Assembly (NCBI GenBank): GCA_035525285.1
Contig: DATLFB010000033.1
Coordinates: 4,365-68,364 of the forward strand
DNA: 64,000 bases
Reading direction: 5' to 3'
Source: Thermoanaerobaculia bacterium
Lineage (GTDB): Bacteria; Acidobacteriota; Thermoanaerobaculia; Gp7-AA8
Shown here: positions 1-60,986 of the stretch, one piece after another
How positions within the stretch are numbered: the first letter of the stretch is position 1
Layout of the letters: every line of letters starts with the position of its first letter
Program-made: the position numbers and the translations under genes
The notes under the pieces: model-generated
What the model saw: the letters and a program-made list of their open reading frames with translations, nothing else
What the model was told of the DNA's origin: nothing
The model's database searches: none

Positions 1-877
1 CGCTCGAGGCGGATCTGCGGGCGGTAGTCGACGCGCGCGGTGCCGACGAAGAAGCCGACCTGCTCGGGCTGCACGTTCGGGAAGCGGTGGCGCGTCGCGT
101 CGATCAGTTTCAGTCGAATATCGGCGGCGATCCGCTCCGACGCATTCTCGTCGGAGAGATCCTGCCCGCGCGTTTCGTAGAAGACGAGGAAGCTCGAGCC
201 GCCCGTGCGATGACAGGTGACGATCGCGTTGCGGAAGCGCTTCTTCGATTCGGCGGCGATGATCTGGCCGACGTTGCACAGCAGTTCGTCGAAGAACGCC
301 CAGCCGTATTCCGCTTCGATGGCCTCGATCTGTTCGATGTCGATGAAGACGATGCCGATCTCGCCCTGCTCGATGAGGATCTCTTTCACGCGGTCGAGGA
401 CGATGGGAAGCGTCGGGAGCGCTGTCGCGCGGTCGAGGAGCATCGACTCGAGTGCGGAACGCCCCGCGAGCTCCCCCTCGCCTGCTTCTTCGCGCGCTTT
501 CTTCAGCACCGCGCCGACGCGCTTGAGCACTTCGTTGCGGTCGAAGGGTTTGACGAGGTAGTCGTCTGCGCCGACCTGCAGGCCGGTGAGGCGGTCCTTC
601 ACGTCGCCGCGGCCGGTGATGAGGATGACGCCGATGTGCGCGGTACGCTGCATGGCCTTCAGCGCCTGGCAGACTTCCCACCCGCTGCGCTTGGGCATCA
701 TCACGTCGAGAAGGACGGCGTCCGGCAACCGCGCCTGCGCGACCGCGAGCGCGTCTTCGCCGTCGCGCGCGACGAGGATCTCGGCCTCGAGGGGACGAAG
801 ATACGTCCGCAACAGCGCTGCGACTTCTTCGTCGTCATCCGCGATCAGCACGACCGGCCGGGACATCTGGCGGGATG
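1..877 (-). CDS. Response regulator, REC domain fused to a degenerate GGDEF-like domain (C-terminus runs off the window)
   Basis: Minus-strand translation from ATG at 877: MSRPVVLIADDDEEVAALLRTYL...DAVLLDVMMPKRSGWEVC...GADDYLVKPF (CheY-like receiver), then ...RTGGSSFLVFYETR (GGDEF-like with a degenerate motif). Not in the ORF track because there is no in-window stop. Confidence 0.6.
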
Positions 878-4125: not shown

Positions 4126-4177
4126 GGAGGGCGGACGTCCCGTCCGCCACTTCGGCGGACGGGACGTCCGCCCTCCT
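4126..4177. repeat. Palindrome family G (GGAGGGCGGACGTCCCGTCCGCC ... GGCGGACGGGACGTCCGCCCTCC)
   Basis: Sits between the convergent dioxygenase (+) and ftsY (-) genes. A bidirectional-terminator-like GC hairpin. Copies at 7407, 49305 and 58193. Confidence 0.8.
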
Positions 4178-7404: not shown

Positions 7405-7406
7405 TG

Positions 7407-7463
7407 GAGGGCGGACGTCTCGTCCGCCCTGTTCACCAGGGGCGGACGGGACGTCCGCCCTCC
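7407..7463. repeat. Palindrome family G
   Basis: ggagggcggacgtctcgtccgccc...gggcggacgggacgtccgccctcc. Confidence 0.8.
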
Positions 7464-34463: not shown

Positions 34464-34487
34464 TCTGCGGTAGCCTCACGGGTGGTG

Positions 34488-34593
34488 ATAAAGGCAGAAG
34501 GCAGAAGGCAGAAGGCAGAAGTGAGAACCGTGACACGGCGCGTGACGCGTGCCTTTCTTACTTCTGCCTTCTGCCTTCTGCCTTCTGCCTTCA
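34488..34593. repeat. Heptamer-tandem hairpin, family C: (GAAGGCA)x4 - loop - (TGCCTTC)x4
   Basis: aaaggcagaaggcagaaggcagaaggcagaagtgagaaccgtgacacggcgcgtgacgcgtgcctttcttacttctgccttctgccttctgccttca. Confidence 0.85.
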
Positions 34594-35814: not shown

Positions 35815-35835
35815 CGCCTGTTCCTCGCCTCGGCC

Positions 35836-36618: not shown

Positions 36619-36643
36619 CCAGCCCCCAACGAGTTGTCACGAA

Positions 36644-40168: not shown

Positions 40169-40205
40169 GGTTGCGGACCCGGAAGATGCCGTGAATGTAG
40201 CACAA

Positions 40206-40270
40206 GTGGAGGACAGGCAATCCTGCCTGTCTCATGAAACGCGGACAGGCAGGATTGCCTGTCCTCCACT
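40206..40270. repeat. Palindrome family H
   Basis: gtggaggacaggcaatcctgcctgtctcatgaaacgcggacaggcaggattgcctgtcctccac. Confidence 0.85.
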
Positions 40271-40271
40271 T

Positions 40272-41342: not shown

Positions 41343-41414
41343 TTCTACTTCCGACAGTCAGGGATGCCCCTCACCCTGCCCCTCTCCCCGCTCGCGGGGA
41401 GAGGGGACTGATGC

Positions 41415-42266: not shown

Positions 42267-42278
42267 AGAACAAAGCCA

Positions 42279-42367
42279 GCGATGAACGATGAACGATGAC
42301 GATGAACGATGAACGGCCGCCACGCCTGCTCATCGTTCATCGTTCATCGATCATCGTTCATCGTTCG
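42279..42367. repeat. Heptamer-tandem hairpin, family D (GATGAAC)
   Basis: gatgaacgatgaacgatgacgatgaacgatgaacggccgccacgcctgctcatcgttcatcgttcatcgatcatcgttcatcgttcg. Confidence 0.85.
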
Positions 42368-44595
42368 GTCCCACTCTTCTCTCGCATTGCCGCCAGAATC
42401 GCGGCAATCACCACCTCGCGCCGGCTGTCCGCCGTCCGCCACGCCTCTTCCAGCTGGTCGCGATACAGCTCCTTGTGTCGAACGAAGGTTTCCGAGACAT
42501 CGTCGAGAATGGCCGCGTTCTCGAGCGCTTTGAACAGAAACGGGAACGACGAGGGGTCGGCGACTTTGTCGAGCGCCTGCACCGCGGACTGCTGCACGTA
42601 CGTATCGGGATCGTCGAGCGCGCGGTGCAGCGCGGAGAGCGCGGTGCGGTCGCCGCGCACGCCGAGGGCGGTCGCCGCGGCGGCACGGATGCGCCAGTCG
42701 TCGTGCGAGAGCGCCGCGAGGAGGCGATCGAATACGTCGCGGCCCGGAATGCGCGCGAGCGCGAGCATCGCCGCGCGCTGGATCTCCGGATCGGCCTCGT
42801 CGAGACACTGGAAGAGCACGTCTTTCACGCTCGCGTTTTCCGACTTGCCGAGCGCTTCGATGACCGCGATGCGCACCGGCGGCGGGTCGTGCGTGAGATG
42901 GCGCATCAGCGGCTCGATCGAATCGGGATGGCGATACTCGCCGAGCGCCTGCGCGGCCGCGGTGCGGATCCAGATGTCGTTGTCGTCGAGTGAGCTGATC
43001 AGCGGCTCGAGCCCGGTCTCCGGACGCAACCGCACGATCGCGTTGATCGCCGCGAGCCGCACCGAGGTCGCTTCATCGGCGAGCGAGAGCACCAGCTGAT
43101 CGGCGAAGCGTTCTTCGCCGAACTTGCCCATGAGCGAGACCGCTTTCTGCCGGATCGTCGGATCGCTGTCCTTCGACGCGAGCAGCAGCTCGTCGTGATA
43201 GCCCTCGCCCTGAATGTTCACGAAAACCGAGAGAGAGTTGAGCTTGATCGGGACCGAGGAGGACTGAAGGAGCCTGCGGATTTTCGTCATCACCTCGCCC
43301 TCGAACTCCGGGAAGGCGGTGACGAGCGCGGAGATCGAGTTGACCGCGGCCTGCTGCGAGGCGACGTCGTAGTCGTCGAGCTTCGCGAGGAGATAGTCGA
43401 TCGACGCGGGATCCGGAATCTCGCCGATGGTCTCGATGGCCAGGCGCCGGATCATCGGATTGTCGTGATCGAGGAAGGGCAGGATGCTCGGGATGCTCTC
43501 CCGGCCGCCGACGACATTCACGACGCGCAGGAGCAGTCCGACGATCTCGTCCTCCTCGGCGTTGCGCAGCGCCTCGAGAATGCTCGGCACGGCGGCGGCA
43601 CCGAAGTCGATGAGCGCTTGCGCGACGATCTCGGCGGTGTCGGGATGTTCGAGATACGCGATCAGGACCGGCAGCGCGCTCGCGTCCGAGGACCAGCCGA
43701 GAAACTTGAGGATGAACGCCTTCACCTCGCGCTTCGGCGTGCTGTGCAGATGCTCGACGAGCGGGACGATCTTTTCGCGCGGGAACGACTCGCGGAAGCG
43801 GTTCTGGATCAGTTGCCGCTCCGCCTGTTCGACGATGCGCGGCTTGCTCGCCTCGGCGATGCGCACGAGTGCGCGCAGCGCGGTGAGGTTGAGCTTTTCT
43901 TCGTCGGCGATGACTCGCAGCAGGAAGTTGACCGTGCCGACGTCGGCGATCTTGCCGATCGCCTCGAGCACCGGCTTGCGCAGCGACTTCTCCGCGAAGA
44001 GCGGAAGGATCGCGGGGAGCGCGGCGCGGTCGCCGATCTCGCCGACCGCTTCGATGACGTGAAACTTCAGCCAGAGATCCTCACGCTCGTGAAGGACGCG
44101 CATGAGATGCGGCAGCGCAGCGGCGTCGCGATATTTTCCGAGCGAAGAGACGACCGAGGAGGCGACGTTGATGTCGTGGTCCTTTGCCAGCAATTCGAGG
44201 AGGATGTCGAATCCGTCGCGGCTGCGGAGATCGCCGAGGAGATTGACCAGCGAGAGGCGGACGTCGACGTCCTGCTCGCGCCGCAGCCGCGCGACGATCG
44301 GCTCGATCGCCGGCGTCCCGATGCGCATCAGCGCCTCGGTCGAGGAGTTGCGCTTGCCGGCGTTCTCCGCGTCGGAGAGCGCGTCGAGGAGGCCATCGAC
44401 GATCTCCGGCCGCGCGTCACGCACGAGCCCGTCGACGATGGTCTTGCGCACGCGCCAGTCCTTGTCGCCGAGGAGCTCGAACATGAGCGGCAGATTGCGG
44501 TCGTCCGCCGAATGGGCGACGAGGTAGGCCGCTTTCTGGCGCGCGTCGGGGTCGGACGAGCGCGCTTGTTCGATGATTTGAGGGTCGGCTGTCAT
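42358..44595 (-). CDS. Large HEAT-repeat (PBS-lyase-like) protein, ~745 aa
   Basis: Around 20 tandem HEAT-like units (e.g. ...DALSDAENAGKRNSSTEALMRIG..., ...LISSLDDNDIWIRTAAAQALGEY...). Start at MTADPQ (ATG 44595), outside hairpin F. Confidence 0.7.
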   Translation of the reverse strand: MTADPQIIEQARSSDPDARQKAAYLVAHSADDRNLPLMFELLGDKDWRVRKTIVDGLVRDARPEIVDGLLDALSDAENAGKRNSSTEALMRIGTPAIEPIVARLRREQDVDVRLSLVNLLGDLRSRDGFDILLELLAKDHDINVASSVVSSLGKYRDAAALPHLMRVLHEREDLWLKFHVIEAVGEIGDRAALPAILPLFAEKSLRKPVLEAIGKIADVGTVNFLLRVIADEEKLNLTALRALVRIAEASKPRIVEQAERQLIQNRFRESFPREKIVPLVEHLHSTPKREVKAFILKFLGWSSDASALPVLIAYLEHPDTAEIVAQALIDFGAAAVPSILEALRNAEEDEIVGLLLRVVNVVGGRESIPSILPFLDHDNPMIRRLAIETIGEIPDPASIDYLLAKLDDYDVASQQAAVNSISALVTAFPEFEGEVMTKIRRLLQSSSVPIKLNSLSVFVNIQGEGYHDELLLASKDSDPTIRQKAVSLMGKFGEERFADQLVLSLADEATSVRLAAINAIVRLRPETGLEPLISSLDDNDIWIRTAAAQALGEYRHPDSIEPLMRHLTHDPPPVRIAVIEALGKSENASVKDVLFQCLDEADPEIQRAAMLALARIPGRDVFDRLLAALSHDDWRIRAAAATALGVRGDRTALSALHRALDDPDTYVQQSAVQALDKVADPSSFPFLFKALENAAILDDVSETFVRHKELYRDQLEEAWRTADSRREVVIAAILAAMREKSGTER

Positions 44596-44597
44596 AC

Positions 44598-44672
44598 GTG
44601 CCACGTGCTGCGTGCTGGGTGCTGCGTGCCGCCGCTGCCTTTACGCAGCACGCAGCACGTAGCACGCAGCAC
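44598..44672. repeat. Heptamer-tandem hairpin, family F (GTGCTGC)
   Basis: gtgccacgtgctgcgtgctgggtgctgcgtgccgccgctgcctttacgcagcacgcagcacgtagcacgcagcac. Confidence 0.85.
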
Positions 44673-44674
44673 CT

Positions 44675-45535
44675 CTATCGCGTCCCCGTCCTCACCTTCT
44701 CGATCTCTTCCCTCTTCATCTGCACGAACTGCTGCAGGGTCTCCGTGTAGATCTCCGTGTCGCGGCGCACGCGCAGCGGGACGCGTGAGTCGTAATACTG
44801 GCGGCCTTCCTCGACCTCGTCGTGGAGGATCTCGAAGAAGTTGTTGTTGCGGATCCCCTGCTCCACTTTCCCCGCGTGATAAATGATGATGTCAGAGAGG
44901 ATCAGACGCGCGAGGCGTCGTGCTTCATCGTACTCGCGCGGCTCGATCGGCACTTCCCTGGTGTCGCCCAATTCGGGAAACAGCTTGCGCAGGATCTGCC
45001 GGAACTCCTTCTCGGGGATCAGCTCCTCGATGTACTCGTCGGCGCCGTACAGGTTCGTCGGATTCGCGCGGAAGCGGTTCGCGCGGAAGAGTGCGCCGAT
45101 GAGGATGACGCGCGTGTGCTCGAGTCCGGGATCGGCCTTGATGTCCTCGGAGACTTCGACGCCGAGCTTACCCTTCAGATAGACGTTGACGATGACGAGA
45201 TCGGCGCGCGCGCGGCGCACGTACTCGAGCGTCGGATCGCCGGTCTCGAAGTACTGCACCTCGAAGCCGAGGCGGCGGAGATGCTCGCCGAGGAAGCGGC
45301 GGAACGGGCGGGGCTCGTCGGCGATGGCGGCGGTGCGGCGGCGCGGCATCGGAGTCGGAGGCGGCGGCTCGTCGTCGAGATCGGGATGTGCGACGGGATG
45401 CATGCCGCTCGCGCTGCGCGGCTTGAGCACCATCTGATACTCGCAGCGCGGACAGGCCACGCGCACCGGTGAGCTCAGCGGCAGGTTCACGACGGCCCGA
45501 AAGGTCGAGCCGCATTTTTTGCACGTCAGTTCCAT
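44675..45535 (-). CDS. Zinc-ribbon (MJ0042-type) plus receiver-like domain protein
   Basis: MELTCKKCGSTFRA...VACPRCEY, then ...ADLVIVNVYLKGKLG...RVILIGALF (REC-like). Confidence 0.5.
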   Translation of the reverse strand: MELTCKKCGSTFRAVVNLPLSSPVRVACPRCEYQMVLKPRSASGMHPVAHPDLDDEPPPPTPMPRRRTAAIADEPRPFRRFLGEHLRRLGFEVQYFETGDPTLEYVRRARADLVIVNVYLKGKLGVEVSEDIKADPGLEHTRVILIGALFRANRFRANPTNLYGADEYIEELIPEKEFRQILRKLFPELGDTREVPIEPREYDEARRLARLILSDIIIYHAGKVEQGIRNNNFFEILHDEVEEGRQYYDSRVPLRVRRDTEIYTETLQQFVQMKREEIEKVRTGTR

Positions 45536-45557
45536 CGATGAAGTCCGGTGGCCGGGA

Positions 45558-46280
45558 TCACGCCGTGCTTGCCGCGAGTGCCCTGCTGTCCAACAGCTTG
45601 TCCAAATCGAGGAGGATCGTCAACGCGTCCGAGACGCGGAAGACGCCGCGAATCGACTCGTCGAGCTCCGTCGAGTGCACCACGGGGGGCGGCTCGATCG
45701 TTTCCGCCCCCGTTTTCACGACGCGCAGGACGCGGTCGACGACGAAGCCGATCATCTCGTTGCGCTGGTCGATGACGACGATCCGCGTGTCGGCCGTGTC
45801 CTCCCCCGCCGGCGGATGGCCGAGTTTTTTGCGCACGTCGACGAGGGTCACGATCGTGCCGCGGAGGGAGATGATGCCGACGACCGACGCGTCGGCGTTG
45901 GGGATGCGCGTGAGCGGCCGCGGCGTGACGATCTCCACGATGCGCTCGATGTCGACCGCGTACTGCTCGCGCGCGATGACGAAGGTGAGGAGCTCGAGCT
46001 GCGACTCGGGCGCCGTTTCCTCCTCGGCGATCTTTCCCGCCTCGGCCTCGCGACGCTTGCCGGCTTGTTCCTTGAAGCGATCGAGCTTGGAGGACGTCGG
46101 CATGTCATCCCGAGCGGAGCCAGGGACCTGGGGCTCGGGTGGCGGCGCGATCTGCGATGTTTCGGGCGCGGATGGCGCCGCCTCCCGCCCGGGTCCCTCG
46201 CTCTCGCTCGGGATGACATCAGAACGCGCCTCTTCTTTACCTTTCTTTGCCTTCTTGCGGATCTTGACCAGATCAACCAT
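45558..46280 (-). CDS. cheW: Chemotaxis coupling protein CheW (with low-complexity N-terminal extension)
   Basis: ...LLTFVIAREQYAVDIERIVEIV...VGIISLRGTIVTLVDVRKKLG...IVVIDQRNEMIGFVVDRV. Confidence 0.8.
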   Translation of the reverse strand: MVDLVKIRKKAKKGKEEARSDVIPSESEGPGREAAPSAPETSQIAPPPEPQVPGSARDDMPTSSKLDRFKEQAGKRREAEAGKIAEEETAPESQLELLTFVIAREQYAVDIERIVEIVTPRPLTRIPNADASVVGIISLRGTIVTLVDVRKKLGHPPAGEDTADTRIVVIDQRNEMIGFVVDRVLRVVKTGAETIEPPPVVHSTELDESIRGVFRVSDALTILLDLDKLLDSRALAASTA

Positions 46281-47085
46281 GCGCGCTCTCCATGTGGTGC
46301 TCGCGGGCGGCGGCGGCGACGCGCGACGGGTCGATCGTCTCCGCGTCTTCGCCGAACGCGTCGAGGAGCGCGGTCGTGGCGAGGGTGTTGATCAGGCGGG
46401 GGATGCCGCCGCTGACGGCGTGGATCTCTTCCATGGCTCTTCGGTCGAACGGATTGCGCGTGCCGCCGGCGACGCGAATGCGATGTTCGATGTAGGCAAT
46501 CGTCTCGTCGAGCGACAGCGGACCGAGAGAGTACCGCATGCCGATGCGCTGCCGAAGCGGCGCGTACGCATCGCGCTCGAGGCGCCGCTCGAGCTCGGGC
46601 TGGCCGATGAGAATCACCGAGAGGAGGTTCTGATCGTCGAGCTGAAAGTTCGTCAGCAGGCGGATCTCGTCGAAGGTCGCCTTCGTCGGAATCAGCTGCG
46701 CCTCGTCGATCATCAGCACCGGCTCGCGCTTCTCTTCGTACAGCTCGTAGAGGCGCGTGTGGATCTGATCGAGGATGTCGTTCCGAAACCGCGCCGGCTC
46801 GACGCCCATCCCGCGCGCGATCTGCTTCAAAAGCTGCGTCGGCGTGAGCCGCGGATTGATCAGCAGAACCACCGGCCGCTCCTCGCCGATGCGATCGATC
46901 AGCGCGCGGCTGAGCGTCGTCTTCCCCGACCCGATGTCGCCCACGAGCAGCGCGAGCTCCTTTTCCTCGACCGCGTATTCGAGGCGGGCGAGTGCCTCTT
47001 TGTGCTGAGGGGACTCGTAGAGGAATCCTGGATCCGGCGTCCTGCCGAAGGGTTTGGTGGCGAGGCCGAAGAATTCTTCGAACAT
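46273..47085 (-). CDS. ExeA-like AAA ATPase
   Basis: ...LALLVGDIGSGKTTLSRALI (Walker A)...VLMIDEAQLI (Walker B)... Confidence 0.65.
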   Translation of the reverse strand: MFEEFFGLATKPFGRTPDPGFLYESPQHKEALARLEYAVEEKELALLVGDIGSGKTTLSRALIDRIGEERPVVLLINPRLTPTQLLKQIARGMGVEPARFRNDILDQIHTRLYELYEEKREPVLMIDEAQLIPTKATFDEIRLLTNFQLDDQNLLSVILIGQPELERRLERDAYAPLRQRIGMRYSLGPLSLDETIAYIEHRIRVAGGTRNPFDRRAMEEIHAVSGGIPRLINTLATTALLDAFGEDAETIDPSRVAAAAREHHMESAHG

Positions 47086-47094
47086 GGATCAAAT

Positions 47095-47180
47095 GAAGGC
47101 AGAAGGCAGAAGGCAGAAGGCAGAACTGAGAAGTTCCACGTTTCTGCCTTCTGCCTTCTGCCTTCTGCCTTCTGCCTTCA
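47095..47180. repeat. Heptamer-tandem hairpin, family C (GAAGGCA)
   Basis: tgaaggcagaaggcagaaggcagaaggcagaactgagaagttccacgtttctgccttctgccttctgccttctgccttca. Confidence 0.85.
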
Positions 47181-49232
47181 TCAATGCACCAGCGCCCCCG
47201 CCCTCACATCGCGGGCACGCCCCCCAAAATGATCGATCAGCGATCCCACATCGACGACGAGAATGATGTCGCTCTCCCCGATTTCCGTCGCCCCCGCGAT
47301 CCCGGGAATCGTCTTCAGCCTCTCGCCGATCGACTTGATCACTACTTCCTGCTGGCGCACGAGCGCGTCGACGAGAATGCCGATCGTCTTTTCGCCGGCG
47401 CGCGTGACGACGATGAACCACTTCGTGTCGGGGCCGTGGTCGTGGTTGTCCTCGAGGCTGAACGCATCGGCGAGCCGCAACAGCGGCAGCGTGAAGTCGC
47501 GCAGCGTGAAGACTTCCTTCCGCTCGACTGTGCGGATGTCGCGCGAGTAGATGCGCAGCGACTCTTCGACGGACGTGAGCGGAATGGCGAACTTCTCGCC
47601 GCTGGCCTCGACGATCAATGCCTGGATGATCGCCAGCGTGATCGGCAGGGAGATGCGGAACGTCGTTCCTTCGCCGAGGCGCGTGACGACGTCGATCGTG
47701 CCCTTGAGCTCCTGGATGTTCTTCTTGACCACGTCGAGGCCGACGCCGCGCCCGGAGATCTCGCTCACGGCGGCAGCGGTGGAGAAGCCGGGCGTGAACA
47801 TCAGCTCGTATGCGCGCTGCTGATCGACCGCGTCCTTCTCGCCGATCAGTCCGCGGTGCACCGCGACGCGGCGGATGTTCTCCGGATCGATCCCGCGCCC
47901 GTCGTCGGTCACATCGAGCACGACCGAGTTCCCCTGCTGATACGCGTTCAGCGTCACGCGTCCCACGGGATTCTTTCCCGCCGCTCGCCGCTCCTCCGAG
48001 GGCTCGATGCCGTGATCGATGGCGTTGCGGATGATGTGCATCAGGGGATCGGTCAGCTCCTCGACCATCATCTTGTCGAGCTCCGTGTCCTCGCCGCGCA
48101 GGATGAGCTCGATCTCTTTGGTCAGCTCGCGCGCGACCTTGCGAACGGTTCGCGATAGTTTCGAGTAGATCTGTCCGACCGGGACCATGCGGATCTCGAT
48201 GACCGACTTCTGCAGCTCGTTGAGCTTGCGGTCGAGATTGCGCGAGATCTTTCCCAGCTCGTGCGAGGCCATGCGCGCCTGCTGCGCGTGCGTGCCCTGG
48301 CCGAGGGCTCTCGCCAGGGTTTCGAGCTGCGTCTTCTCGATGATCAGCTCGCCAACGATGTTCATCACGTGATCGAGCTTCGCGATGTCGACGCGCACGG
48401 TCTGCGAGAGCGATCGCAGCGACAGCTCTTCTTCCGCCGCCGCCTCGATCGGCGCGACGGTGACGCCGGCCGGACCGGCCACGGCCGGCGAGACCGCTTT
48501 TCGCAGCGAGGTCACCACCGCTTCCGGCGCGATCGCCTGCACGGCCGCGTCGTTGAGCATCGATCCGTACAGCAGGCGGAAGGCGATGCCGTTCACGTTG
48601 CCCGTCGGAATCGCGGGCAGCGTCGAGATCACTTCGCCCGCCTCGCTGAGGTTCGCGGTGATCGCGCGCAGCCGCTCGTCGAAGTCGGCGAAATCGAACG
48701 TCACTTCGAGCGAGAGGATGTGCTTGCCGGAGCGCACGTTCTCCATCAGGCGATGCTCTTCGTATTCGGTGAGCGACTTCTTCGTCTGCTCGTCGAGGGT
48801 CAGCGCCGCGAACGGATCTTCATGTTTCTGCTGCGGCTGGCTGGTGACGATCTGGTGGATGCGGCGCGTGAGGCCGGTCATGTCGACGAGACCGCCGACG
48901 GACGAGTCGTTGATGGCGATGACGAGGCGATTGAGGCTGTCGACGGAGTCGTAGAGCAGATCGATCAGCTCGCGCGAGAACTCGATCTTCCCCATGCGCA
49001 GGCGGTCGAGCATGTCCTCGAGGCTGTGCGAGAGCTCGGAGATCTCGGTGAAGCCGAGCATGCCCGCGAGGCCCTTGAGCGAGTGCACCTCGCGGAAGAT
49101 CTTGTTGACCAGCTCGGGGCGGACATTCTTTCCCTGCTGTTCGAAGTCGACGAGATCGCGCGAGAGTGTGTCGAGAAGCTCTTCCGCCTCGCTGGTGAAC
49201 TCTTCCCGTGCGCGATCGTCTTCGCGTGCCAT
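47181..49232 (-). CDS. cheA: Chemotaxis histidine kinase CheA
   Basis: Hpt (...FREVHSLKGLAGMLGF), dimerisation, HATPase (...HIIRNAIDHGIE...DDGRGID...GRGVGLDVV), C-terminal CheW-like domain. Confidence 0.9.
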   Translation of the reverse strand: MAREDDRAREEFTSEAEELLDTLSRDLVDFEQQGKNVRPELVNKIFREVHSLKGLAGMLGFTEISELSHSLEDMLDRLRMGKIEFSRELIDLLYDSVDSLNRLVIAINDSSVGGLVDMTGLTRRIHQIVTSQPQQKHEDPFAALTLDEQTKKSLTEYEEHRLMENVRSGKHILSLEVTFDFADFDERLRAITANLSEAGEVISTLPAIPTGNVNGIAFRLLYGSMLNDAAVQAIAPEAVVTSLRKAVSPAVAGPAGVTVAPIEAAAEEELSLRSLSQTVRVDIAKLDHVMNIVGELIIEKTQLETLARALGQGTHAQQARMASHELGKISRNLDRKLNELQKSVIEIRMVPVGQIYSKLSRTVRKVARELTKEIELILRGEDTELDKMMVEELTDPLMHIIRNAIDHGIEPSEERRAAGKNPVGRVTLNAYQQGNSVVLDVTDDGRGIDPENIRRVAVHRGLIGEKDAVDQQRAYELMFTPGFSTAAAVSEISGRGVGLDVVKKNIQELKGTIDVVTRLGEGTTFRISLPITLAIIQALIVEASGEKFAIPLTSVEESLRIYSRDIRTVERKEVFTLRDFTLPLLRLADAFSLEDNHDHGPDTKWFIVVTRAGEKTIGILVDALVRQQEVVIKSIGERLKTIPGIAGATEIGESDIILVVDVGSLIDHFGGRARDVRAGALVH

Positions 49233-49304
49233 GGACCGCGCTCATGGTAGCGCATCGCCAGTCCCCTCTCCCGGCCAGGAGTCTGCGCGGCAGGAAGCGA
49301 TCGT

Positions 49305-49362
49305 GGAGGGCGGACGTCTCGTCCGCCCAGCGGACGGGAGGCGGACGAGACGTCCGCCCTCC
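49305..49362. repeat. Palindrome family G
   Basis: ggagggcggacgtctcgtccgcccagcggacgggaggcggacgagacgtccgccctcc. Confidence 0.8.
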
Positions 49363-56445: not shown

Positions 56446-58173
56446 TCACGCGTTCATCGACGCGTTGACGAAATCCGCGAAGCGGCTCGCCATCTCGGCG
56501 TCGAACTGCGTGCCCGCGGCCCGCGCGATCGTCGCCAGCGCGTTGGTCGGCGACTCGGCGGGCTGGTAGCTGTCGGGATCCGTCATGGCCTGATACGCGT
56601 CGCAGATCGCCACCAGCCGCGAGAGCGCGGGGATCTCTTCGCCGTGCAGCTCGTTCGGATAGCCGCGGCCGTCCGGTCGTTCGTGATGACAGAGCACCGC
56701 CCGCGCGAGCTCGGGGCCGAGGAGCGGCTCGACGATCGCGGCGCTGACGGCGGGATGCTCGCGCAGAAATCCGAGCTCCTCCTGCGTCAGATCCTTTTTC
56801 CGAAAGAGGCGCTCGTACTCGAGCAGGCGCATGCCCGCGTCGTGCACGAGTCCGACGATGCGCGCGTTCTCGACTTCCGCGGGCGGGAGCGCGAGGAAGC
56901 GCGCGAAGCTCTCGGCGAGCTTCGAGGTCCGTTCCGAATGACGCTTCAGCTCCGGATACTTCGTGAAGTCGGGCTCGACGAGCTTCTCCGCGACGCGCTG
57001 GCGCATCGCCGACATCGCGCCGCGTTGCATCGACTGCTCGATGACGAGCTGCAGATGCGTGTGCAGCGCGGCGAGCAGTTCGTGCGCGCCGCGATCGGGC
57101 GTGCCGCTGAACGCGACGGTGAGATAGAGGCCGCGCATCGAGCCCGCGATGATCGGCGCGGTGAAGACCTTCTGCAGCTCGTTCGCACCGATCGCCGGAC
57201 CGGAGGTCCCGAACGGCGTCGACACGGACGCGCGTGCATAGCCGCCCCCGCTGCCACGCTTCGCGAGCCAGAGGTTCAGCTTCGACTGCAGAAAGTTCTT
57301 CGCCTCCTCGGAAAGCGTGTTGCGCGCGACGATCTCCTGCACGCCGCCGAGGTGGCCGTAGGCGGAGAGCGAGACGGCGACGGCGCCGGGAATGAGGAGC
57401 ATGTTGCGCAACGCGTCGCGCGCGGCGGCGAGATCGGCTTCCGAGAGCGACTCCGGCGGCGGTGCGACGATGCGCCCGGCGGCGGTGCGCGCTTCGAGGA
57501 CGAGCGTCGCCAGTCGCGGCACGTGCACGCGCGCGGCCTCGCCGGAGGCAGCGGGCTGCGGTGCGGCAGCGGCGGGTTTCGGCGGAGCGGGCGGCGGAGG
57601 CGGAGGCGGAGGCGTCGCATACGGCTTCTCGCGCACGGGCGCCTCGCCGCTGATGGCCGGCTCCTTCGCGGTTTCATCTTTCGGAACCGCGGAGTGCTCG
57701 CCGCTCATGTTCGAGAGGGCGATGTAGCGGAGGCCGAACACGTTCGTGTTCGCGAAGAGCGCAACGATGCGCTCGGCGATCTCCTGGGCGCGCTCGGCAT
57801 CCGCTTTCTCGAACGGCAGGCGTCCGGCCTTGTCGCGCATGTCGATGACGCCCACCAGTTTCCCGCGCGTGTAGAGCGGCGCGGCGAGGAGGCGGTCGGT
57901 CGACGACTCGAACAGCAGCTCGGAGAAGCGCGGCTCGACGGCGACTCCATTGACGTAGAAAGCCGTGCGGCCGCGGCCGCAGCGGTCGATCAGCGGATCG
58001 TTCGTGTCCGCCGACGTGCGGGCCGTGCCGCGGAAGCCGTACTCGGTGACGAGCTCGAACCGGTTGCTGCCGTCGAAGAGGTAGAGCGCGGCCTTGGTCG
58101 CGCGGATCTCCACCGCGCAGTCGTAGAGAATCTCCTTCAGTTTCGGCCGAAGCTCCTCGACCTCAGGATGCAC
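56446..58173 (-). CDS. GAF domain plus HD-GYP domain protein (putative c-di-GMP phosphodiesterase/signal transducer)
   Basis: N-terminal GAF-like (LKEILYDCAVEIRATKAALYLFD...), Pro-rich linker (PPPPPPPPAPPKP), C-terminal HD-GYP (...IVGLVHDAGM...AVLCHHERPDGRGYP...). Start uncertain (candidate GTG 58173). The ORF-track start 58251 lies in palindrome G and overlaps the selW-like gene. Confidence 0.7.
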   Translation of the reverse strand: MHPEVEELRPKLKEILYDCAVEIRATKAALYLFDGSNRFELVTEYGFRGTARTSADTNDPLIDRCGRGRTAFYVNGVAVEPRFSELLFESSTDRLLAAPLYTRGKLVGVIDMRDKAGRLPFEKADAERAQEIAERIVALFANTNVFGLRYIALSNMSGEHSAVPKDETAKEPAISGEAPVREKPYATPPPPPPPPAPPKPAAAAPQPAASGEAARVHVPRLATLVLEARTAAGRIVAPPPESLSEADLAAARDALRNMLLIPGAVAVSLSAYGHLGGVQEIVARNTLSEEAKNFLQSKLNLWLAKRGSGGGYARASVSTPFGTSGPAIGANELQKVFTAPIIAGSMRGLYLTVAFSGTPDRGAHELLAALHTHLQLVIEQSMQRGAMSAMRQRVAEKLVEPDFTKYPELKRHSERTSKLAESFARFLALPPAEVENARIVGLVHDAGMRLLEYERLFRKKDLTQEELGFLREHPAVSAAIVEPLLGPELARAVLCHHERPDGRGYPNELHGEEIPALSRLVAICDAYQAMTDPDSYQPAESPTNALATIARAAGTQFDAEMASRFADFVNASMNA

Positions 58174-58192
58174 GGGCGAGATTGTAAGCGAG

Positions 58193-58247
58193 GAGGGCGG
58201 ACCTCCCGTCCGCCGGTCGGAATGGCGGACGAGACGTCCGCCCTCCT
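58193..58247. repeat. Palindrome family G, immediately downstream of the selW-like stop
   Basis: ggagggcggacctcccgtccgccggtcggaatggcggacgagacgtccgccctcc. Confidence 0.8.
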
Positions 58248-58475
58248 TCAACTGCTCAGCGAGCGCAGCTTCTCGACGATCTCGCTCTCGGTCGGGAAGC
58301 GCCCTTCGCTGCGCTTCGAGAAGATCACGCGATTGTCGACGGAGACGTCGAAGATGCCGCCGCTGCCGCGCACGAGCTCACTCTCGATGCCGAGGCTCTT
58401 CCGGATCTCGGCCGCCAGACTGGAGGCCCGGGGAAGGTAGTTTCAAACGCCGCAGTAGTCGATTCGAACGCTCAC
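58248..58475 (-). CDS. SelW/Rdx-family selenoprotein (75 aa) with selenocysteine encoded by in-frame TGA (CxxU)
   Basis: Minus-strand translation from GTG 58475 (GTGA overlap with the PP2C stop): MSVRIDYCGV-U-NYLPRASSLAAEIRKSLGIESELVRGSGGIFDVSVDNRVIFSKRSEGRFPTESEIVEKLRSLSS. TGA at 58443-58445 falls exactly at the CxxU redox position. Downstream ...GGIFDV.V....I.SK...GRFP... matches SelW-like proteins (compare human SelW YCGAU...[21 protein letters not shown]). Missed by ORF calling because of the internal TGA. Confidence 0.6.
58405..58442 (-). promoter_or_regulatory. Candidate SECIS-like stem-loop downstream of the UGA (Sec) codon
   Basis: mRNA after UGA: AACUACCUUCCCCGG-GCCUCCA[GUC]UGGCGGC-CGAG. 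Imperfect GC stem with a G/U-containing apical loop beginning ~15 nt after UGA. Not folded computationally. Confidence 0.25.
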
Positions 58476-59242
58476 GTCGACACGGTCCTCACGAGCACGG
58501 CAGTGACGTTATCGAGTCCGCCGCGCTCGTTCGCGGCATCGATGAGCTGCTGACACGCCTTCTGCAGGTTCTGGTCGTTCTCCGTCACCACGCGCAGGAT
58601 CTCGTTCTCCGGAACCATGCCCGTCAGTCCATCGGAACAGAGCAGATAGACATCGCCCGCCTGGGCGGCGATCTCCGAGGCGTCGGGCGTGACCTGCAGC
58701 GCGCCGCCGAGGGCGCGCGTGATCACGTTGCGCAACGGATGCTTCTCCGCCTCCGCCTCGGTGAGCATGCCCGCCTGCACCTGCTCGAAGACCCACGAGT
58801 GATCGTTCGTGATGCGCGAGAGCTGCCCTTCGCGGACGAGATACGCGCGCGAGTCTCCCACGTGCGCGACGGAGACCTTTTCCTCGTCGGCCATGCAGGC
58901 AACGATCGTCGTGCCCATGCCGCGCAGGCGGGCGTCTTTGCGCATGGCCTCGAGCACGCGCGTGTTGGCGAGGCGCACCGCGGCCATGAGGCGGTTCGTC
59001 GTGCGCGAGTAGTGCTCGTCGTACGCGTGTGGCCAGGTGCCGTCGTCTTCTTTGGTGTGGAGGATGAACTCGGAGATCGAGTCGACGGCGATGCGTGAGG
59101 CGATCTCGCCCGCGGCGTGCCCGCCCATTCCGTCCGCCACCAGGAAGAGCTTCGCGTCGCTCTCGACGAGGAACGCGTCCTCGTTGTGCTGCCGCTGGCG
59201 GCCGACATGGGTGAGACCGTAGGCGCTGATTTCCATCTGCAT
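58472..59242 (-). CDS. PP2C-family Ser/Thr protein phosphatase
   Basis: Start ATG 59242 (ATGA overlap with upstream stop). ...HVGRQRQHNEDAF...LVADGMGGHAAGEIAS...GTTIVAC...VGDSRAY...CSDGLT...GGLDNVT. Confidence 0.85.
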   Translation of the reverse strand: MQMEISAYGLTHVGRQRQHNEDAFLVESDAKLFLVADGMGGHAAGEIASRIAVDSISEFILHTKEDDGTWPHAYDEHYSRTTNRLMAAVRLANTRVLEAMRKDARLRGMGTTIVACMADEEKVSVAHVGDSRAYLVREGQLSRITNDHSWVFEQVQAGMLTEAEAEKHPLRNVITRALGGALQVTPDASEIAAQAGDVYLLCSDGLTGMVPENEILRVVTENDQNLQKACQQLIDAANERGGLDNVTAVLVRTVST

Positions 59243-59886
59243 CAGCGTTTCCCGAAGATCGAGAAGCCGCCCTTCGCCTCCCTGGTCTGCCGCAGCTCGG
59301 CCAGCGCTGCCTGGATGTCGGCGTTGGAGGCGTCCCACTTCAGGGCCTCCTCGAGGTACCGCTCCGCTTTTGCCACCAGTCCTGCCTGACGGCAGATCAG
59401 ACCGGCGTCCTTCAGGAACAACGGATTCAGCGGCTCGCGCTGCAGGGCGCCTTCGATGGCCTGCACCGCCTGGCGGGTGTACGAAGGAATGCGGGCGGCC
59501 GCGAGGGCGAGGTAGTGAAACGCCTTCGCGTCCTGAGGATTGTGCTTCACGGCCATGTCGAAGTTTTCGTACGCCGCGCTCGCGTCGTTTTCCTTGAACG
59601 CCTTCACGCCCTTGGCCAGATACGCCTTCGCGACCTGCGCGAAATCGGCAGGCCCCCGCCCGCCGCCGCTCACGAGCTCGGAATCGTGCTGCTTGCGCCT
59701 GGCCGCGTTCGTCAGCACGTTGACCGCCTCGGTGAGGGTCTGGAACTTCCGCTCCGCCTCGGCCTTGTCCGAGCCGCGATAGCGGTCAGGATGGTTCTCC
59801 CGCGCGAGCTTGCGAAAGCGATCGCGGATCTCCTCATCGCTGGCTGACCGATCGACCCCGAGGATCTCGTAGTAGTTGACCTTCAT
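59242..59886 (-). CDS. DnaJ (J-domain) plus TPR-repeat protein
   Basis: MKVNYYEILGVDRSASDEEIRDRFRKLARENHPD (J domain with HPD), followed by TPR-like helices. Confidence 0.7.
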   Translation of the reverse strand: MKVNYYEILGVDRSASDEEIRDRFRKLARENHPDRYRGSDKAEAERKFQTLTEAVNVLTNAARRKQHDSELVSGGGRGPADFAQVAKAYLAKGVKAFKENDASAAYENFDMAVKHNPQDAKAFHYLALAAARIPSYTRQAVQAIEGALQREPLNPLFLKDAGLICRQAGLVAKAERYLEEALKWDASNADIQAALAELRQTREAKGGFSIFGKR

Positions 59887-60986
59887 CCGGTTTTCTGGGT
59901 ACGGGACAGATAGAGTTTCTTGGCCATCTCGCGGACGACCTGCTGGACGCCCTTGTCGTCCTTCAACCCTTTCAGATCTCGTAAGATTAGTCGATTGATG
60001 AATGGCAGGACAACCCCCACAGGCGTCTTCGGATTCTTGCAGAGGATGAGCATGATGTTGTACTTGCCCGACCAGTCCTTCTTCGCTCCGATGAGGCGGA
60101 GGACTTCCGGCTCCACGTTGCGCATGCCGGCGATGCTCTCGATCTCCGTTTCGGTGATGCGGGGGTTGCGCATGACCGCGGTGCAGATCAACCTGTTGCG
60201 GTCGCGGACGAGAAGCATGCGCAGCATGCGGTCCCCTTTGAACGAGAGCTGCACTTTCTCGGACACGGAGAGGTACTGCAGCTTCGCCCAGATCGCGAAC
60301 TTCCGGGTGTCCTTCTTTTCGCCTTCGAGGAGCGAGAGCGTCTGCTCCGCCGCTTCGGGCGGAGGCTCGGCCGCGGCGCGCTCGAGCAGATCGGCGATCG
60401 GTTCGAGAGGGATGTCGGCGAGCTCCTCTTCGAGCTCCGCGACCACGGCTTCCATCGGCTGCATGCGCGCGCGCTTGTCGAAGAATTCTTCGCGCGTCTC
60501 GAGCGCGCGGCGCTTTGCATCGGCTGAGAGCGCTGGATTCTCGAGCAACGCATCGAGGATCTGCGGCGCGCGAAGAATGCGCGCCTGATTGATGACGATG
60601 ACTTCCTGCAGCCTCCCTTCCGCGCGCCGGGCGAGCTCGGTGACCGCGGAGTCGGGAACGGTGCGATTGCGAATCAGGAGCTCGAGCACGGGACTGTCGC
60701 TGGTCGCGTTCATCAGATCGACGAGGCGCTCGACGGGAATGCCTTCGTTCGCCGCGTAGTCCAGCACGACGCGCGTCGGGATCTCGCCGAGTGCCGTGCG
60801 CGCGAGCGCGCCCACTTCGCGGTCGTTCGACGCGCTGAGATACGCGAGCACGCTGATCAGCTCCTCCTGCGGCAGCGGGAGATATCCCTGAGCGATCGTC
60901 ATCACCACGTCGCGCGGGTACGTGCCCGCCTCGATCAGCGGAATCACCGCCGCGGCGGTCGGCTCCGTGAAAGGTGCGGTGCTCAT
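59883..60986 (-). CDS. Hypothetical alpha-helical protein
   Basis: 367-aa ORF translationally coupled (ATGA) with flanking genes. No clear motif. Confidence 0.4.
   Translation of the reverse strand: MSTAPFTEPTAAAVIPLIEAGTYPRDVVMTIAQGYLPLPQEELISVLAYLSASNDREVGALARTALGEIPTRVVLDYAANEGIPVERLVDLMNATSDSPVLELLIRNRTVPDSAVTELARRAEGRLQEVIVINQARILRAPQILDALLENPALSADAKRRALETREEFFDKRARMQPMEAVVAELEEELADIPLEPIADLLERAAAEPPPEAAEQTLSLLEGEKKDTRKFAIWAKLQYLSVSEKVQLSFKGDRMLRMLLVRDRNRLICTAVMRNPRITETEIESIAGMRNVEPEVLRLIGAKKDWSGKYNIMLILCKNPKTPVGVVLPFINRLILRDLKGLKDDKGVQQVVREMAKKLYLSRTQKTG

What the first reader, a model, noticed from the sequence alone, without database searches (positions are those of the whole stretch)
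58248..58475. Unannotated SelW-like selenoprotein gene with in-frame UGA (CxxU) overlapping the PP2C stop codon
The six-frame track shows nothing between the PP2C gene (58472..) and palindrome G (58193-58247). Reading through a single TGA at 58443-58445 gives a 75-aa protein MSVRIDYCGV[U]NYLPRASSLAAEIRKSLGIESELVRGSGGIFDVSVDNRVIFSKRSEGRFPTESEIVEKLRSLSS. The TGA sits exactly at the Sec position of the SelW/Rdx CxxU redox motif, and the downstream sequence shows the family hallmarks (GGxFxVxV...SK...G.FP). A 10-codon ORF ending at that TGA makes no sense; an in-frame Sec codon does. The gene is translationally coupled to the PP2C gene (GTGA) and ends right before a palindromic terminator. If correct, this organism has a Sec-insertion system (selA/B/C/D elsewhere).
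Basis: partly seen in the sequence, partly recalled or inferred. Interest (0 to 1): 0.85.

Follow-up and report, generated by a model that had tools for sequence, protein, structure and literature searches.

The report
Mis-annotated SelW-like selenoprotein gene
This is a real but ordinary small redox-protein gene of the known SelW/Rdx family, in which one TGA "stop" codon most likely encodes selenocysteine with the help of a conserved RNA hairpin; standard gene finders truncate or mistranslate it, here and in all its relatives.

Summary
Window 58475..58248 (minus strand) encodes a 75-residue protein interrupted only by TGA at 58445-58443, inside a C-G-V-U motif. With U read as C, it passes the curated cut-offs of Pfam Rdx (66.6 bits) and NCBIfam SelT/W/H models. 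It also matches eight solved Rdx-fold structures, with U aligned to the second Cys of their CxxC.

All 80 species representatives retrieved (Thermoanaerobaculia/Acidobacteriota MAGs) keep TGA at this codon, invariant RIDYCGV-U-NYLPRA around it, and a start codon at one fixed position. Cys-form siblings (CxxC) exist.

A hairpin 18-36 nt after the UGA meets all four published bacterial SECIS criteria. Its synonymous sites are nearly frozen, and its closing pair, made of two codon wobble positions, co-varies (A-U 37, G-C 27, C-G 2).

The "palindromic terminator" is really one of four copies of a REP-like repeat and has no U-tract.

selA, selB, selD and tRNA-Sec are not in the 64-kb window, and I could not check them genome-wide.

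Bacterial SelW-like selenoproteins have been known since about 2004-2006. This is a new member of a known kind: a good annotation catch of low novelty. The only mildly new points are class-wide Sec retention and a conserved PP2C-Rdx operon.

The parts
58248..58475 (-). SelW-like / Rdx-family selenoprotein gene: 75 codons plus stop. GTG start at 58475-58473, TGA stop at 58250-58248.
   Evidence: Translation. Pfam PF10262 66.6 bits. NCBIfam NF041051 89.1 bits (cut-off 88) and TIGR02174 56.4 bits (cut-off 34.2). PDB Rdx-fold matches. Full-length conservation in 80 of 80 species.
58452..58454 (-). Cys8 codon (TGC), the first residue of the CxxU redox motif.
   Evidence: TGC or TGT in 81 of 81 unique sequences. 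It aligns to the first Cys of CxxC in Atu0228, SAV_2001 and MIEN1.
58443..58445 (-). In-frame TGA, the inferred selenocysteine codon (residue 11).
   Evidence: TGA in 84 of 85 related loci, including 80 of 80 GTDB species representatives, and in the distant L087, L088 and L089. It aligns to the second Cys of CxxC in Cys-form homologues.
58410..58428 (-). bSECIS-type hairpin, nt +18..+36 counted from the U of UGA. It has a 4-bp lower stem, a U22/C32 mismatch and a 3-bp upper stem closed by A-U. The apical loop is G26-U27-C28 (window 58420-58418).
   Evidence: MFE/centroid fold. 98.1% of cells are paired versus 16-45% in slid controls, and pair 18-36 is AU 37 / GC 27 / CG 2. Synonymous entropy is 0.09 versus 0.56, with at least 8 AU/GC switches on a tree. 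79 of 81 sequences reach -7.5 kcal/mol or lower. It meets the published bSECIS constraints (PMC13188914).
58486..58490 (-). GAGGA, a possible Shine-Dalgarno sequence 10 nt upstream of the GTG start, lying inside the end of the PP2C gene.
   Evidence: Read directly from the sequence. Not tested further.
58472..59242 (-). PP2C-family Ser/Thr phosphatase gene, immediately upstream. Its TGA stop overlaps the Rdx GTG start (GTGA).
   Evidence: Pfam PP2C_2 68.6 bits and PP2C 58.6 bits. A PP2C homologue lies directly upstream in 78 of 81 loci, mostly with a gap of 30 nt or less or a 1-4 nt overlap.
58192..58246 (.). REP-like nested palindrome in the 74-nt spacer after the Rdx stop. It is context only, not a gene-specific terminator.
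   Evidence: Fold of -53.1 kcal/mol. The same 23-nt unit occurs as inverted pairs at 4126-4176, 7406-7463, 49305-49362 and 58192-58246, with 0 expected by chance. It has no T-run and is not called as a terminator. It is absent from all 88 related loci.
56446..58173 (-). Downstream GAF + HD (HD_5 / HD-GYP-type) signalling protein gene. The probable start is GTG 58173, by homology to L005 (MHPE...).
   Evidence: Pfam HD_5 89.5, HD 46.5 and GAF 28.7 bits. The synteny is conserved.

Best explanation
Window 58475-58248 (minus strand) is a functional gene for a 75-residue thioredoxin-fold redox protein of the SelW/Rdx family. Its active site is Cys8-Gly-Val-Sec11.

Mechanism (inferred). During translation, the UGA at 58445-58443 is not read as stop. 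The hairpin 18-36 nt downstream has an unpaired U, a 3-bp stem closed by A-U, and a G-U-C loop. It acts as a bacterial SECIS element: it binds SelB-GTP carrying Sec-tRNA(Sec) and delivers it to the UGA, so selenocysteine is inserted.

Operon. The gene is transcribed and translationally coupled with the upstream PP2C phosphatase gene (GTGA overlap). This operon is conserved throughout the class Thermoanaerobaculia (phylum Acidobacteriota).

Protein function (inferred from the family). The protein probably cycles between a selenolate/thiol state and a Cys8-Sec11 selenenylsulfide, acting as a thiol-dependent oxidoreductase on an unknown partner.

Shown here: family membership, conservation of the UGA, Sec/Cys pairing with homologues, and RNA-level selection and covariation on the hairpin. 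Inferred: that SelB and tRNA-Sec are the decoding agents, and the redox chemistry and target.
For: - Sequence and family: the readthrough product matches Pfam Rdx (66.6 bits, cut-off 22.6), NCBIfam NF041051 (89.1, cut-off 88) and TIGR02174 CXXU_selWTH (56.4, cut-off 34.2). It also matches eight solved Rdx-fold proteins, including mouse SelW, with CGVU aligned to their CxxC.
- Conservation: TGA is at the same codon in 80 of 80 GTDB species representatives, with invariant RIDYCGV/NYLPRA flanks. All 82 non-duplicate sequences (window + 81 loci) have ATG, GTG or TTG at one fixed start position. Protein-level purifying selection acts upstream of the TGA, shown by synonymous variation at Gly9, Asp6 and Tyr7.
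- Beyond the class: TGA is also present in an Eisenbacteria MAG and two metagenome contigs with different gene contexts.
- Sec/Cys pair: 15 of the 150 nearest cluster representatives carry CxxC. One (L090) was confirmed at DNA level.
- Hairpin conservation: codons 17-21 have normalised synonymous entropy 0.09 versus 0.56 elsewhere. Ser19 is AGT in 81 of 81 in a 65% GC genome.
- Hairpin covariation: the closing pair 18-36 joins two wobble positions and co-varies, with AU 37, GC 27, CG 2, GU/UG 2 and 8 unpaired. No shuffle out of 500 reached this, and there are at least 8 switches on a tree. Pair 21-33 is U-A in L088.
- bSECIS criteria (PMC13188914): all four are met. The loop is 3 nt and the stem 7 bp. 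The loop motif is A-G-U-C-U. The UGA-to-loop spacing is 22 nt. The energy is -11.1 kcal/mol.
- Comparison with a proven SECIS: the layout matches the verified E. coli fdhF SECIS.
- UGA is not reassigned: it is the main ordinary stop in the window (22 of 30 ORFs), including this gene's own stop.
- Literature: SelW-like bacterial selenoproteins and Sec use in Acidobacteria are documented (PMC1794560; PMC12013277).
Against: - No selA, selB, selD or tRNA-Sec was found in the 64-kb window or in about 1.3 Mb of syntenic loci from relatives. The ORF survey covered only the larger, high-GC3 ORFs of the window, not every stretch. I could not examine the rest of any of these genomes, so the Sec machinery is inferred, not shown.
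- The hairpin is not more stable than dinucleotide shuffles (z = -0.2 to +0.7). Thermodynamics alone gives no support, though the same holds for the proven fdhF SECIS (z = -0.9).
- Only one pair shows two-sided covariation among the 76 aligned sequences. The others are invariant, and the region also encodes a conserved peptide.
- No Rfam family matches the hairpin.
- One relative, a 1.3-kb contig (L005), has AGA (Arg) instead of TGA.
- There is no experimental evidence of selenium incorporation.
Confidence: 0.93

Rival explanations
1. The UGA is decoded, but not as selenocysteine. An opal-suppressor tRNA inserts Cys, Ser or another residue. Candidates are the tRNA-Sec-like allo-tRNAs reported from Acidobacteria or a selC*-type tRNA-Cys. 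On this reading the conserved hairpin serves another purpose, such as slowing the ribosome.
For: Mukai et al. (PMC5389517) report allo-tRNAs in Acidobacteria that may act as nonsense suppressors, and selC* tRNA-Cys that may act as an opal suppressor in other phyla. No Sec machinery could be shown for this lineage.
Against: - UGA is the normal and most frequent stop in this genome, including this gene's own stop 64 codons later. General suppression would therefore be harmful.
- The hairpin satisfies every bSECIS criterion and mirrors the fdhF SECIS layout, which is what a SelB-dependent mechanism needs.
- The recoded position is exactly the Sec position of a family defined by CxxU (TIGR02174).
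- Acidobacteria are documented Sec users.
Confidence: 0.04
2. The TGA is an ordinary stop. The locus is a 10-codon leader peptide followed by a separately initiated shorter Rdx-like ORF, as public annotations have it (41-64 aa), or it is a decaying pseudogene.
For: Gene callers annotate only the post-TGA part in nearly all relatives. The mechanical ORF list in the window gives a 41-aa ORF.
Against: - There is no conserved start after the TGA. The first canonical in-frame start is scattered from codon 14 to codon 73 and is absent in 14 of 82 sequences. Codon 14 is CTC or CTT in most.
- A truncated product would lack the CxxU active site that defines the family.
- The ten upstream codons are under strong protein-level selection, in the same frame, in 80 of 80 species.
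- A pseudogene would not keep TGA, its flanks and the hairpin across a whole class and into other phyla.
Confidence: 0.02
3. The hairpin is a by-product of coding for the conserved peptide RASSLAAE plus GC-rich composition, not a functional RNA element.
For: The region encodes a conserved helix. Folding energy is no better than shuffled sequence. Six of seven pairs are invariant or vary on one side only.
Against: - Synonymous sites are frozen only here (entropy 0.09 versus 0.56). This includes the rare AGT Ser codon in 81 of 81 and TCC in 76 of 76, whereas Ser32 and Ser53 use four or more codons.
- The two wobble positions 18 and 36 have no protein-level link, yet they co-vary (Fisher p = 9e-15, at least 8 independent switches).
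- Compensatory U-A at pair 21-33 occurs in L088.
- Slid-register controls fall to 16-45% paired.
Confidence: 0.01

Closest known systems
Bacterial SelW-like selenoproteins (Rdx family; Pfam PF10262; NCBIfam TIGR02174 CXXU_selWTH and NF041051)
   Same: - The size is similar (about 75 aa), and the CxxU motif lies right after the first beta-strand.
- The downstream GG.F.V...SK..G.FP signature is present.
- It passes all three curated profile cut-offs.
- Sec is strongly preferred over Cys among close relatives, as noted for this family in PMC1794560.
   Different: This lineage (Thermoanaerobaculia) has not been described as carrying one: no papers were found. Here the gene sits in a class-wide conserved operon behind a PP2C phosphatase, a context not seen in the out-of-class homologues L087 and L088.
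Cys-containing Rdx proteins with solved structures (Atu0228 2FA8, SAV_2001 3DEX, 2OJL, 2OKA, 2P0G, 2OBK) and mammalian SelW (2NPB) / MIEN1 (2LJK)
   Same: Homology is detectable over residues 3-73 (E = 4e-10 to 2.5e-3). The redox motif is aligned, for example IRYCTQCNWLLRA versus IDYCGVUNYLPRA.
   Different: The bacterial structures are CxxC forms of about 105 residues, whereas this protein is a 75-residue CxxU form. The fold was not modelled here. The biochemical function of the bacterial members is unknown.
E. coli fdhF SECIS element (the paradigm bacterial SECIS)
   Same: Both are stem-loops inside the coding region just after the UGA. Each has an unpaired U on the 5' side and then a 3-bp stem closed by A-U. 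Each ends in a small loop containing G-U: fdhF has U18 / G19-C20-A21 / GGUC, and here it is U22 / C23-C24-A25 / GUC.
   Different: - The loop is 3 nt instead of 4.
- The unpaired U faces a C (a 1x1 mismatch) rather than being a pure bulge.
- The element sits about one codon further from the UGA.
- There is no sequence similarity and no Rfam model.
- SelB binding is untested.
REP (repetitive extragenic palindromic) elements
   Same: The palindrome after the gene is an intergenic, highly stable, nested inverted repeat present in at least four copies in 64 kb.
   Different: The sequence is unrelated to enterobacterial REPs. It is specific to this genome among those examined. No associated transposase (RAYT) was sought.

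Membership tests
Rdx / SelW-SelT-SelH family (Pfam PF10262, TIGR02174) | Profile match above the curated gathering score | tested here: met
   PF10262 scores 66.6 bits against a cut-off of 22.6 and covers profile positions 2-73 of 74. TIGR02174 scores 56.4 against 34.2, and NF041051 scores 89.1 against 88.
Rdx / SelW-SelT-SelH family (Pfam PF10262, TIGR02174) | CxxC or CxxU redox motif near the N-terminus, after the first beta-strand | tested here: met
   C8-G-V-U11 aligns column for column with CTQC of Atu0228 and SAV_2001 and CEPC of MIEN1. The motif is invariant in 80 species.
Rdx / SelW-SelT-SelH family (Pfam PF10262, TIGR02174) | Thioredoxin-like fold | not tested
   No structure was predicted here. 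The fold is inferred only from sequence homology to eight solved Rdx-fold chains.
Bacterial selenoprotein (Sec encoded by UGA) | In-frame UGA with conserved coding sequence on both sides, in the same frame | tested here: met
   80 of 80 species representatives and three out-of-class homologues show this. Synonymous variation with fixed amino acids occurs upstream of the UGA.
Bacterial selenoprotein (Sec encoded by UGA) | Homologues with Cys at the position of the UGA (Sec/Cys pair) | tested here: met
   15 CxxC forms are among the 150 nearest cluster representatives. L090 CVPC was confirmed on DNA. PDB homologues are CxxC.
Bacterial selenoprotein (Sec encoded by UGA) | bSECIS element meeting the four published criteria: (1) 3-9 nt loop on a 4-16 bp stem; (2) G in the first two loop positions; (3) 16-37 nt between UGA and loop; (4) MFE of -7.5 kcal/mol or lower (criteria from PMC13188914) | tested here: met
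   The loop is GUC, in the motif A-G-U-C-U. The stem has 7 bp and the spacing is 22 nt. The energy is -11.1 kcal/mol in the window, and 79 of 81 relatives reach -7.5 or lower. Covariation supports it.
Bacterial selenoprotein (Sec encoded by UGA) | The genome encodes SelA, SelB, SelD and tRNA-Sec | not testable with these tools
   Only 64 kb of the genome is available. None of these genes is in the window or in 88 related loci. The attempt to reach lineage SelA sequences returned only Enterobacterales. Support is at phylum level and from the literature only.
Bacterial selenoprotein (Sec encoded by UGA) | Selenium actually incorporated (75Se labelling or mass spectrometry) | not testable with these tools
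   This needs an experiment.
Rho-independent (intrinsic) terminator, as claimed for the palindrome at 58192-58246 | GC-rich stem-loop followed directly by a U-tract | tested here: not met
   The stem-loop is present, but the tail is CGCTTACAATCTCG with no T-run. The terminator scan does not call it.
REP-like repeated palindromic element | The same imperfect palindrome recurs at several intergenic sites of the genome | tested here: met
   Four sites in the window each hold an inverted pair of the 23-nt unit, with 0-0.8 expected by chance.

The most novel reading that the evidence does not exclude
The Sec-containing Rdx protein may be a dedicated redox partner of the signalling proteins it is co-transcribed with: the PP2C phosphatase upstream and the GAF-HD(-GYP) protein downstream. 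That would form a selenium-dependent redox switch on Ser/Thr-phosphorylation or cyclic-nucleotide signalling, conserved across the class Thermoanaerobaculia. It would also give the first physiological role for a bacterial SelW-like protein. The evidence does not exclude this: PP2C sits directly upstream in 78 of 81 loci, often with overlapping stop and start codons. But the linkage is absent outside the class and may be mere conserved gene order.
Probability: 0.1. Interest if true: 0.5.

Novelty: new member of a known kind. Interest (0 to 1): 0.25.

Why it matters
The practical value is in annotation. This gene is wrongly modelled in essentially every public record examined. It appears truncated to 41-64 aa without its active site, or translated with the wrong genetic code so that Sec appears as Trp. 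The sole full-length 75-aa model, P0001 (L005), shows Arg at the Sec position because that contig reads AGA there. It is therefore a clean test case for selenoprotein-aware gene callers.

It also implies that Thermoanaerobaculia use selenocysteine. This is a widespread, mostly uncultured soil and sediment class of Acidobacteriota, and at least 514 species-level genomes carry a relative. In all 80 species examined the residue has never been replaced by Cys.

The covarying hairpin adds a well-supported example to the poorly modelled bacterial SECIS repertoire; Rfam has no match for it.

None of this changes current understanding of Sec decoding or of the Rdx family.

Tried and rejected
1. Sec machinery in the held DNA. 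ARAGORN found no tRNA in the window or in the 86 loci held at that point (L001-L086); the later loci L087-L090 were not scanned. An NCBIfam survey of 30 larger window ORFs found no SelA, SelB or SelD. tblastn with E. coli SelA/B/D probes, written from memory, found nothing in about 1.3 Mb. The SelA probe was later shown to be 99-100% correct. This is uninformative rather than negative, because all the loci are the same syntenic neighbourhood.

2. Linking Sec machinery to the lineage. A SelA homology search listed only Enterobacterales (best 120 of 8000). This was a dead end.

3. Identifying the source genome. The exact PP2C ORF was not on record. The exact DnaJ protein was found only on a 1.8-kb Logan contig from SRR8556377. 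The nearest species representative is only 82% identical.

4. Rfam. Nothing matched the hairpin; only sub-threshold miRNA-precursor hits fell on the palindrome.

5. Thermodynamic excess of the hairpin. There is none (z about 0), so I rejected it as evidence.

6. A longer SECIS lower stem. RNAalifold proposes nt -16..-5 pairing with nt 76..86, but all its variation is C/U opposite G with no compensatory change. I do not count it as supported.

7. Other genes in the window with the same apical motif CCAGTYTGG. There are none.

8. Intrinsic-terminator reading of the palindrome. Rejected.

9. Structure prediction. Not run, because sequence matches to eight solved Rdx structures made it unnecessary.

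Full report
**1. Observation**

The minus strand of window 58475-58248 reads VSVRIDYCGV*NYLPRASSLAAEIRKSLGIESELVRGSGGIFDVSVDNRVIFSKRSEGRFPTESEIVEKLRSLSS*.
- The start is GTG at 58475-58473. It shares the tetranucleotide GTGA with the TGA stop (58474-58472) of the upstream ORF.
- The internal TGA is at 58445-58443.
- The terminal TGA is at 58250-58248.
- A purely mechanical ORF list shows only a 41-aa fragment here.

**2. Family**

With U replaced by C, the 75-residue product matches three curated models above their cut-offs:
- Pfam Rdx (PF10262): 66.6 bits against 22.6, covering the whole profile.
- NCBIfam NF041051, SelT/SelW/SelH family (seleno)protein: 89.1 against 88.
- TIGR02174 CXXU_selWTH: 56.4 against 34.2.

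Against the PDB it matches eight Rdx-fold chains: Atu0228, SAV_2001, MIEN1, four further bacterial SelW-related proteins, and mouse selenoprotein W. In these alignments C8-G-V-U11 lies on their CxxC motif.

**3. Comparative test of the TGA**

A first homology search returned 42 proteins. Almost all were 41-64 aa and began at "MPRASS", the residues just after the window's TGA. The DNA of two such loci showed an in-frame TGA preceded by VRIDYCGV.

A scan of one genome per GTDB species found at least 514 relatives. The best 80 are all MAGs of Thermoanaerobaculia/Acidobacteriota.
- In 80 of 80, the codon is TGA and RIDYCGV-U-NYLPRA is invariant.
- All 82 non-duplicate sequences (window + 81 loci) have ATG (56), GTG (18) or TTG (8) at the same start position.
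- Gly9, Asp6 and Tyr7, upstream of the TGA, vary synonymously while the amino acids stay fixed. The ten upstream codons are therefore translated in this frame.
- No alternative start is conserved after the TGA. The first canonical in-frame start is scattered from codon 14 to codon 73 and is absent in 14 of 82 sequences.
- TGA is nevertheless the commonest ordinary stop in the window (22 of 30 ORFs) and ends this very gene. The genetic code is therefore not globally reassigned.

More distant homologues also have TGA at this codon. They are an Eisenbacteria MAG and two metagenome contigs with unrelated neighbours.

**4. Sec/Cys pair**

I ran an exhaustive search of 1.84 billion cluster representatives with the post-TGA part of the protein. 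It gave 546 hits at E of 0.001 or lower. The best 150 divide as follows:

| Class | Count |
|---|---|
| Truncated just after the motif | 92 |
| "CxxW" | 27 |
| CxxC | 15 |
| CxxS | 1 |
| Unclear | 15 |

I checked one "CxxW" entry at DNA level. The W is a TGA, and the caller also read through the true TGA stop. So these are Sec forms translated with the wrong code. A close sibling from a TARA ocean contig is a genuine CVPC form. This is the classical Sec/Cys signature of a selenoprotein family.

**5. The RNA element**

Positions are counted from the U of UGA as 1.

Structure:
- Nucleotides 18-21 pair with 33-36.
- U22 faces C32.
- Nucleotides 23-25 pair with 29-31.
- G26-U27-C28 form the loop.
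- In window coordinates the hairpin is 58428-58410.

Evidence that selection acts on the RNA:
- Normalised synonymous entropy is 0.09 in codons 17-21, against 0.56 in 32 other conserved codons. Ser18 is always TCC and Ser19 always AGT, in a 65% GC genome, whereas Ser32 and Ser53 use four or more codons.
- The closing pair joins the wobble base of Arg16 to the wobble base of Ala22. It is A-U in 37 distinct sequences, G-C in 27, C-G in 2, G-U or U-G in 2, and unpaired in 8.
- Overall 98.1% of cells are paired, against 16-45% when the 3' strand is slid by one to three columns. No shuffle out of 500 reached the observed covariation.
- On a neighbour-joining tree built without the hairpin, A-U and G-C interchange at least 8 times. 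The gene is short, so that tree is rough.
- In the lower-GC homologue L088, pair 21-33 is U-A instead of C-G.

Comparison with known elements:
- The element meets all four constraints of the published bSECIS consensus (PMC13188914). The loop is 3 nt on a 7-bp stem. The loop context is A-G-U-C-U. The UGA-to-loop spacing is 22 nt. The energy is -11.1 kcal/mol, and 79 of 81 relatives reach -7.5 or lower.
- I recalled the E. coli fdhF SECIS from memory and verified it: 100% identity, annotated fdhF.
- That element folds to the same layout of unpaired U, 3-bp stem closed by A-U, and GU-containing loop.

Caveats:
- Folding energy is no better than shuffled sequence for either hairpin.
- Only one pair shows two-sided change within the class.
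- The region also encodes a conserved helix.
- Rfam has no matching family.

**6. Context**

Pfam on the window's own neighbours gives this gene order:
- a RodZ-like HTH protein;
- a 367-aa protein with no family match;
- DnaJ+TPR;
- PP2C (58472-59242);
- the Rdx gene;
- a GAF+HD_5 protein (56446-58173);
- then GatC and GatA.

The same order holds in relatives. A PP2C homologue lies directly upstream in 78 of 81 loci, mostly with a gap of 30 nt or less or a 1-4 nt overlap. It is absent from the out-of-class homologues.

**7. The "terminator"**

The palindrome at 58192-58246 folds very stably (-53 kcal/mol, z = -5.8). But it lacks a U-tract and is not called as a terminator.

It is one of four copies in the window of an inverted pair of the unit GGAGGGCGGAC-N5-GTCCGCC. 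The copies lie at about 4.1, 7.4, 49.3 and 58.2 kb, with 0 expected by chance. The unit occurs in none of the 88 related loci. It is a REP-like repeat of this genome. It may still stabilise or end transcripts, but it is not part of the selenoprotein gene.

**8. What could not be shown**

- selA, selB, selD and tRNA-Sec are not in the window or in the related loci.
- The rest of the genome is unavailable, and my attempt to reach this lineage's SelA failed.
- Support for Sec use is therefore indirect. It rests on the evolutionary pattern above and on literature showing selenoproteins in Acidobacteria/Acidobacteriota (PMC1794560; PMC12013277; PMC13582414).
- Opal-suppressor allo-tRNAs reported from Acidobacteria (PMC5389517) are the only serious rival for how the UGA is read. 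The SECIS-type hairpin and the normal use of UGA as stop argue against them.

**9. Verdict**

The kind is long known. SelW-like proteins are one of the bacterial selenoprotein families catalogued in 2006, and that paper already noted that they rarely have Cys forms in Sec-using organisms. So this is a new member of a known kind.

The modestly new points are these:
- Sec is retained in every species representative examined of an uncultured acidobacterial class.
- The hairpin is a SECIS supported by covariation.
- The PP2C-Rdx operon is conserved across the class.
- Public gene models of this gene are systematically wrong.

Interest is about 0.25.

Noticed in passing
window 4126-4176, 7406-7463, 49305-49362, 58192-58246: A REP-like repeat family. 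Each site is an inverted pair of the 23-nt unit GGAGGGCGGAC-GTCYC-GTCCGCC, and each unit is itself a 7-bp hairpin. All sites are intergenic, with 0 expected by chance. The unit is absent from all 88 loci of related genomes. Its function is unknown, and no RAYT-type transposase was sought.
   Followed up: partly
L005 1105-1107 (ENA contig k141_1580709, 1364 bp): This is the only homologue with AGA (Arg) instead of TGA at the Sec codon. It has an intact hairpin, and its nearest relatives (L016 and L035, about 85% DNA identity) have TGA. It is either a sequencing or assembly error or a recent inactivation. It is also why the protein database holds one 'full-length' 75-aa model (P0001).
   Followed up: partly
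public protein databases; L089 133-384: 27 of the 150 nearest cluster representatives show 'CxxW' at the redox motif. The one checked at DNA level has TGA there, and the caller also read through the true TGA stop. These are selenoprotein genes mistranslated with genetic code 4 by metagenome gene callers.
   Followed up: yes
window 58464-58466 (Arg4 CGA) and 58446-58448 (Val10 GTT): Rare codons are conserved upstream of the Sec codon across 82 sequences (CGA 65 of 82, GTT 69 of 82). The base before UGA is U in 84%, and the base after it is always A. This may be a codon-context effect on Sec insertion versus RF2 termination. It remains unexplained.
   Followed up: no
window 58449-58460 with 58360-58370 (nt -16..-5 and 76..86 relative to UGA): RNAalifold proposes a long-range helix enclosing the UGA and the hairpin. 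It is 86-100% paired, but all variation is C/U opposite G with no compensatory change, so it is not supported.
   Followed up: partly
window 31098-36636 (minus strand): This is a cluster of cytochrome genes. Their best NCBIfam matches are components of the selenite/tellurite-reduction operon: ExtP 264.8 bits (cut-off 290), plus weaker ExtQ and ExtS hits. There is also a SoxX-like domain. All the Ext matches are below cut-off, so this is probably a generic cytochrome b/c complex next to the aa3 oxidase genes. It is still worth a look given the selenium theme.
   Followed up: no
window 59883-60986 (minus strand): A 367-aa protein with no Pfam match is conserved in the same operon position, between the RodZ-like and DnaJ-TPR genes, in 68 of 81 related loci. 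Its stop and start overlap its neighbours.
   Followed up: no
L001 10237-10530; L004 10252-11055: In relatives, extra genes sit between the Rdx gene and the GAF-HD gene: a Spore_YtfJ-like gene in L001 and an unannotated 267-aa gene in L004. In the window this position holds only the 74-nt spacer with the REP-like palindrome.
   Followed up: no
L087 5946-6162 (Candidatus Eisenbacteria MAG GCA_020847735.1): A homologue from a different phylum and gene context carries a 20-nt hairpin identical to the window's (GGGCCUCCAGUCUGGCGGCC), along with the same LPRASSLAAEI peptide. This suggests either very strong dual constraint or horizontal transfer of the gene together with its SECIS.
   Followed up: no
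window 39362-49241 (minus strand): A chemotaxis-type cluster (CheA, CheW, CheR, CheB, response regulators) is interleaved with large HEAT-repeat proteins and an XrtA/PEP-CTERM-associated ATPase homologue (below cut-off).
   Followed up: no
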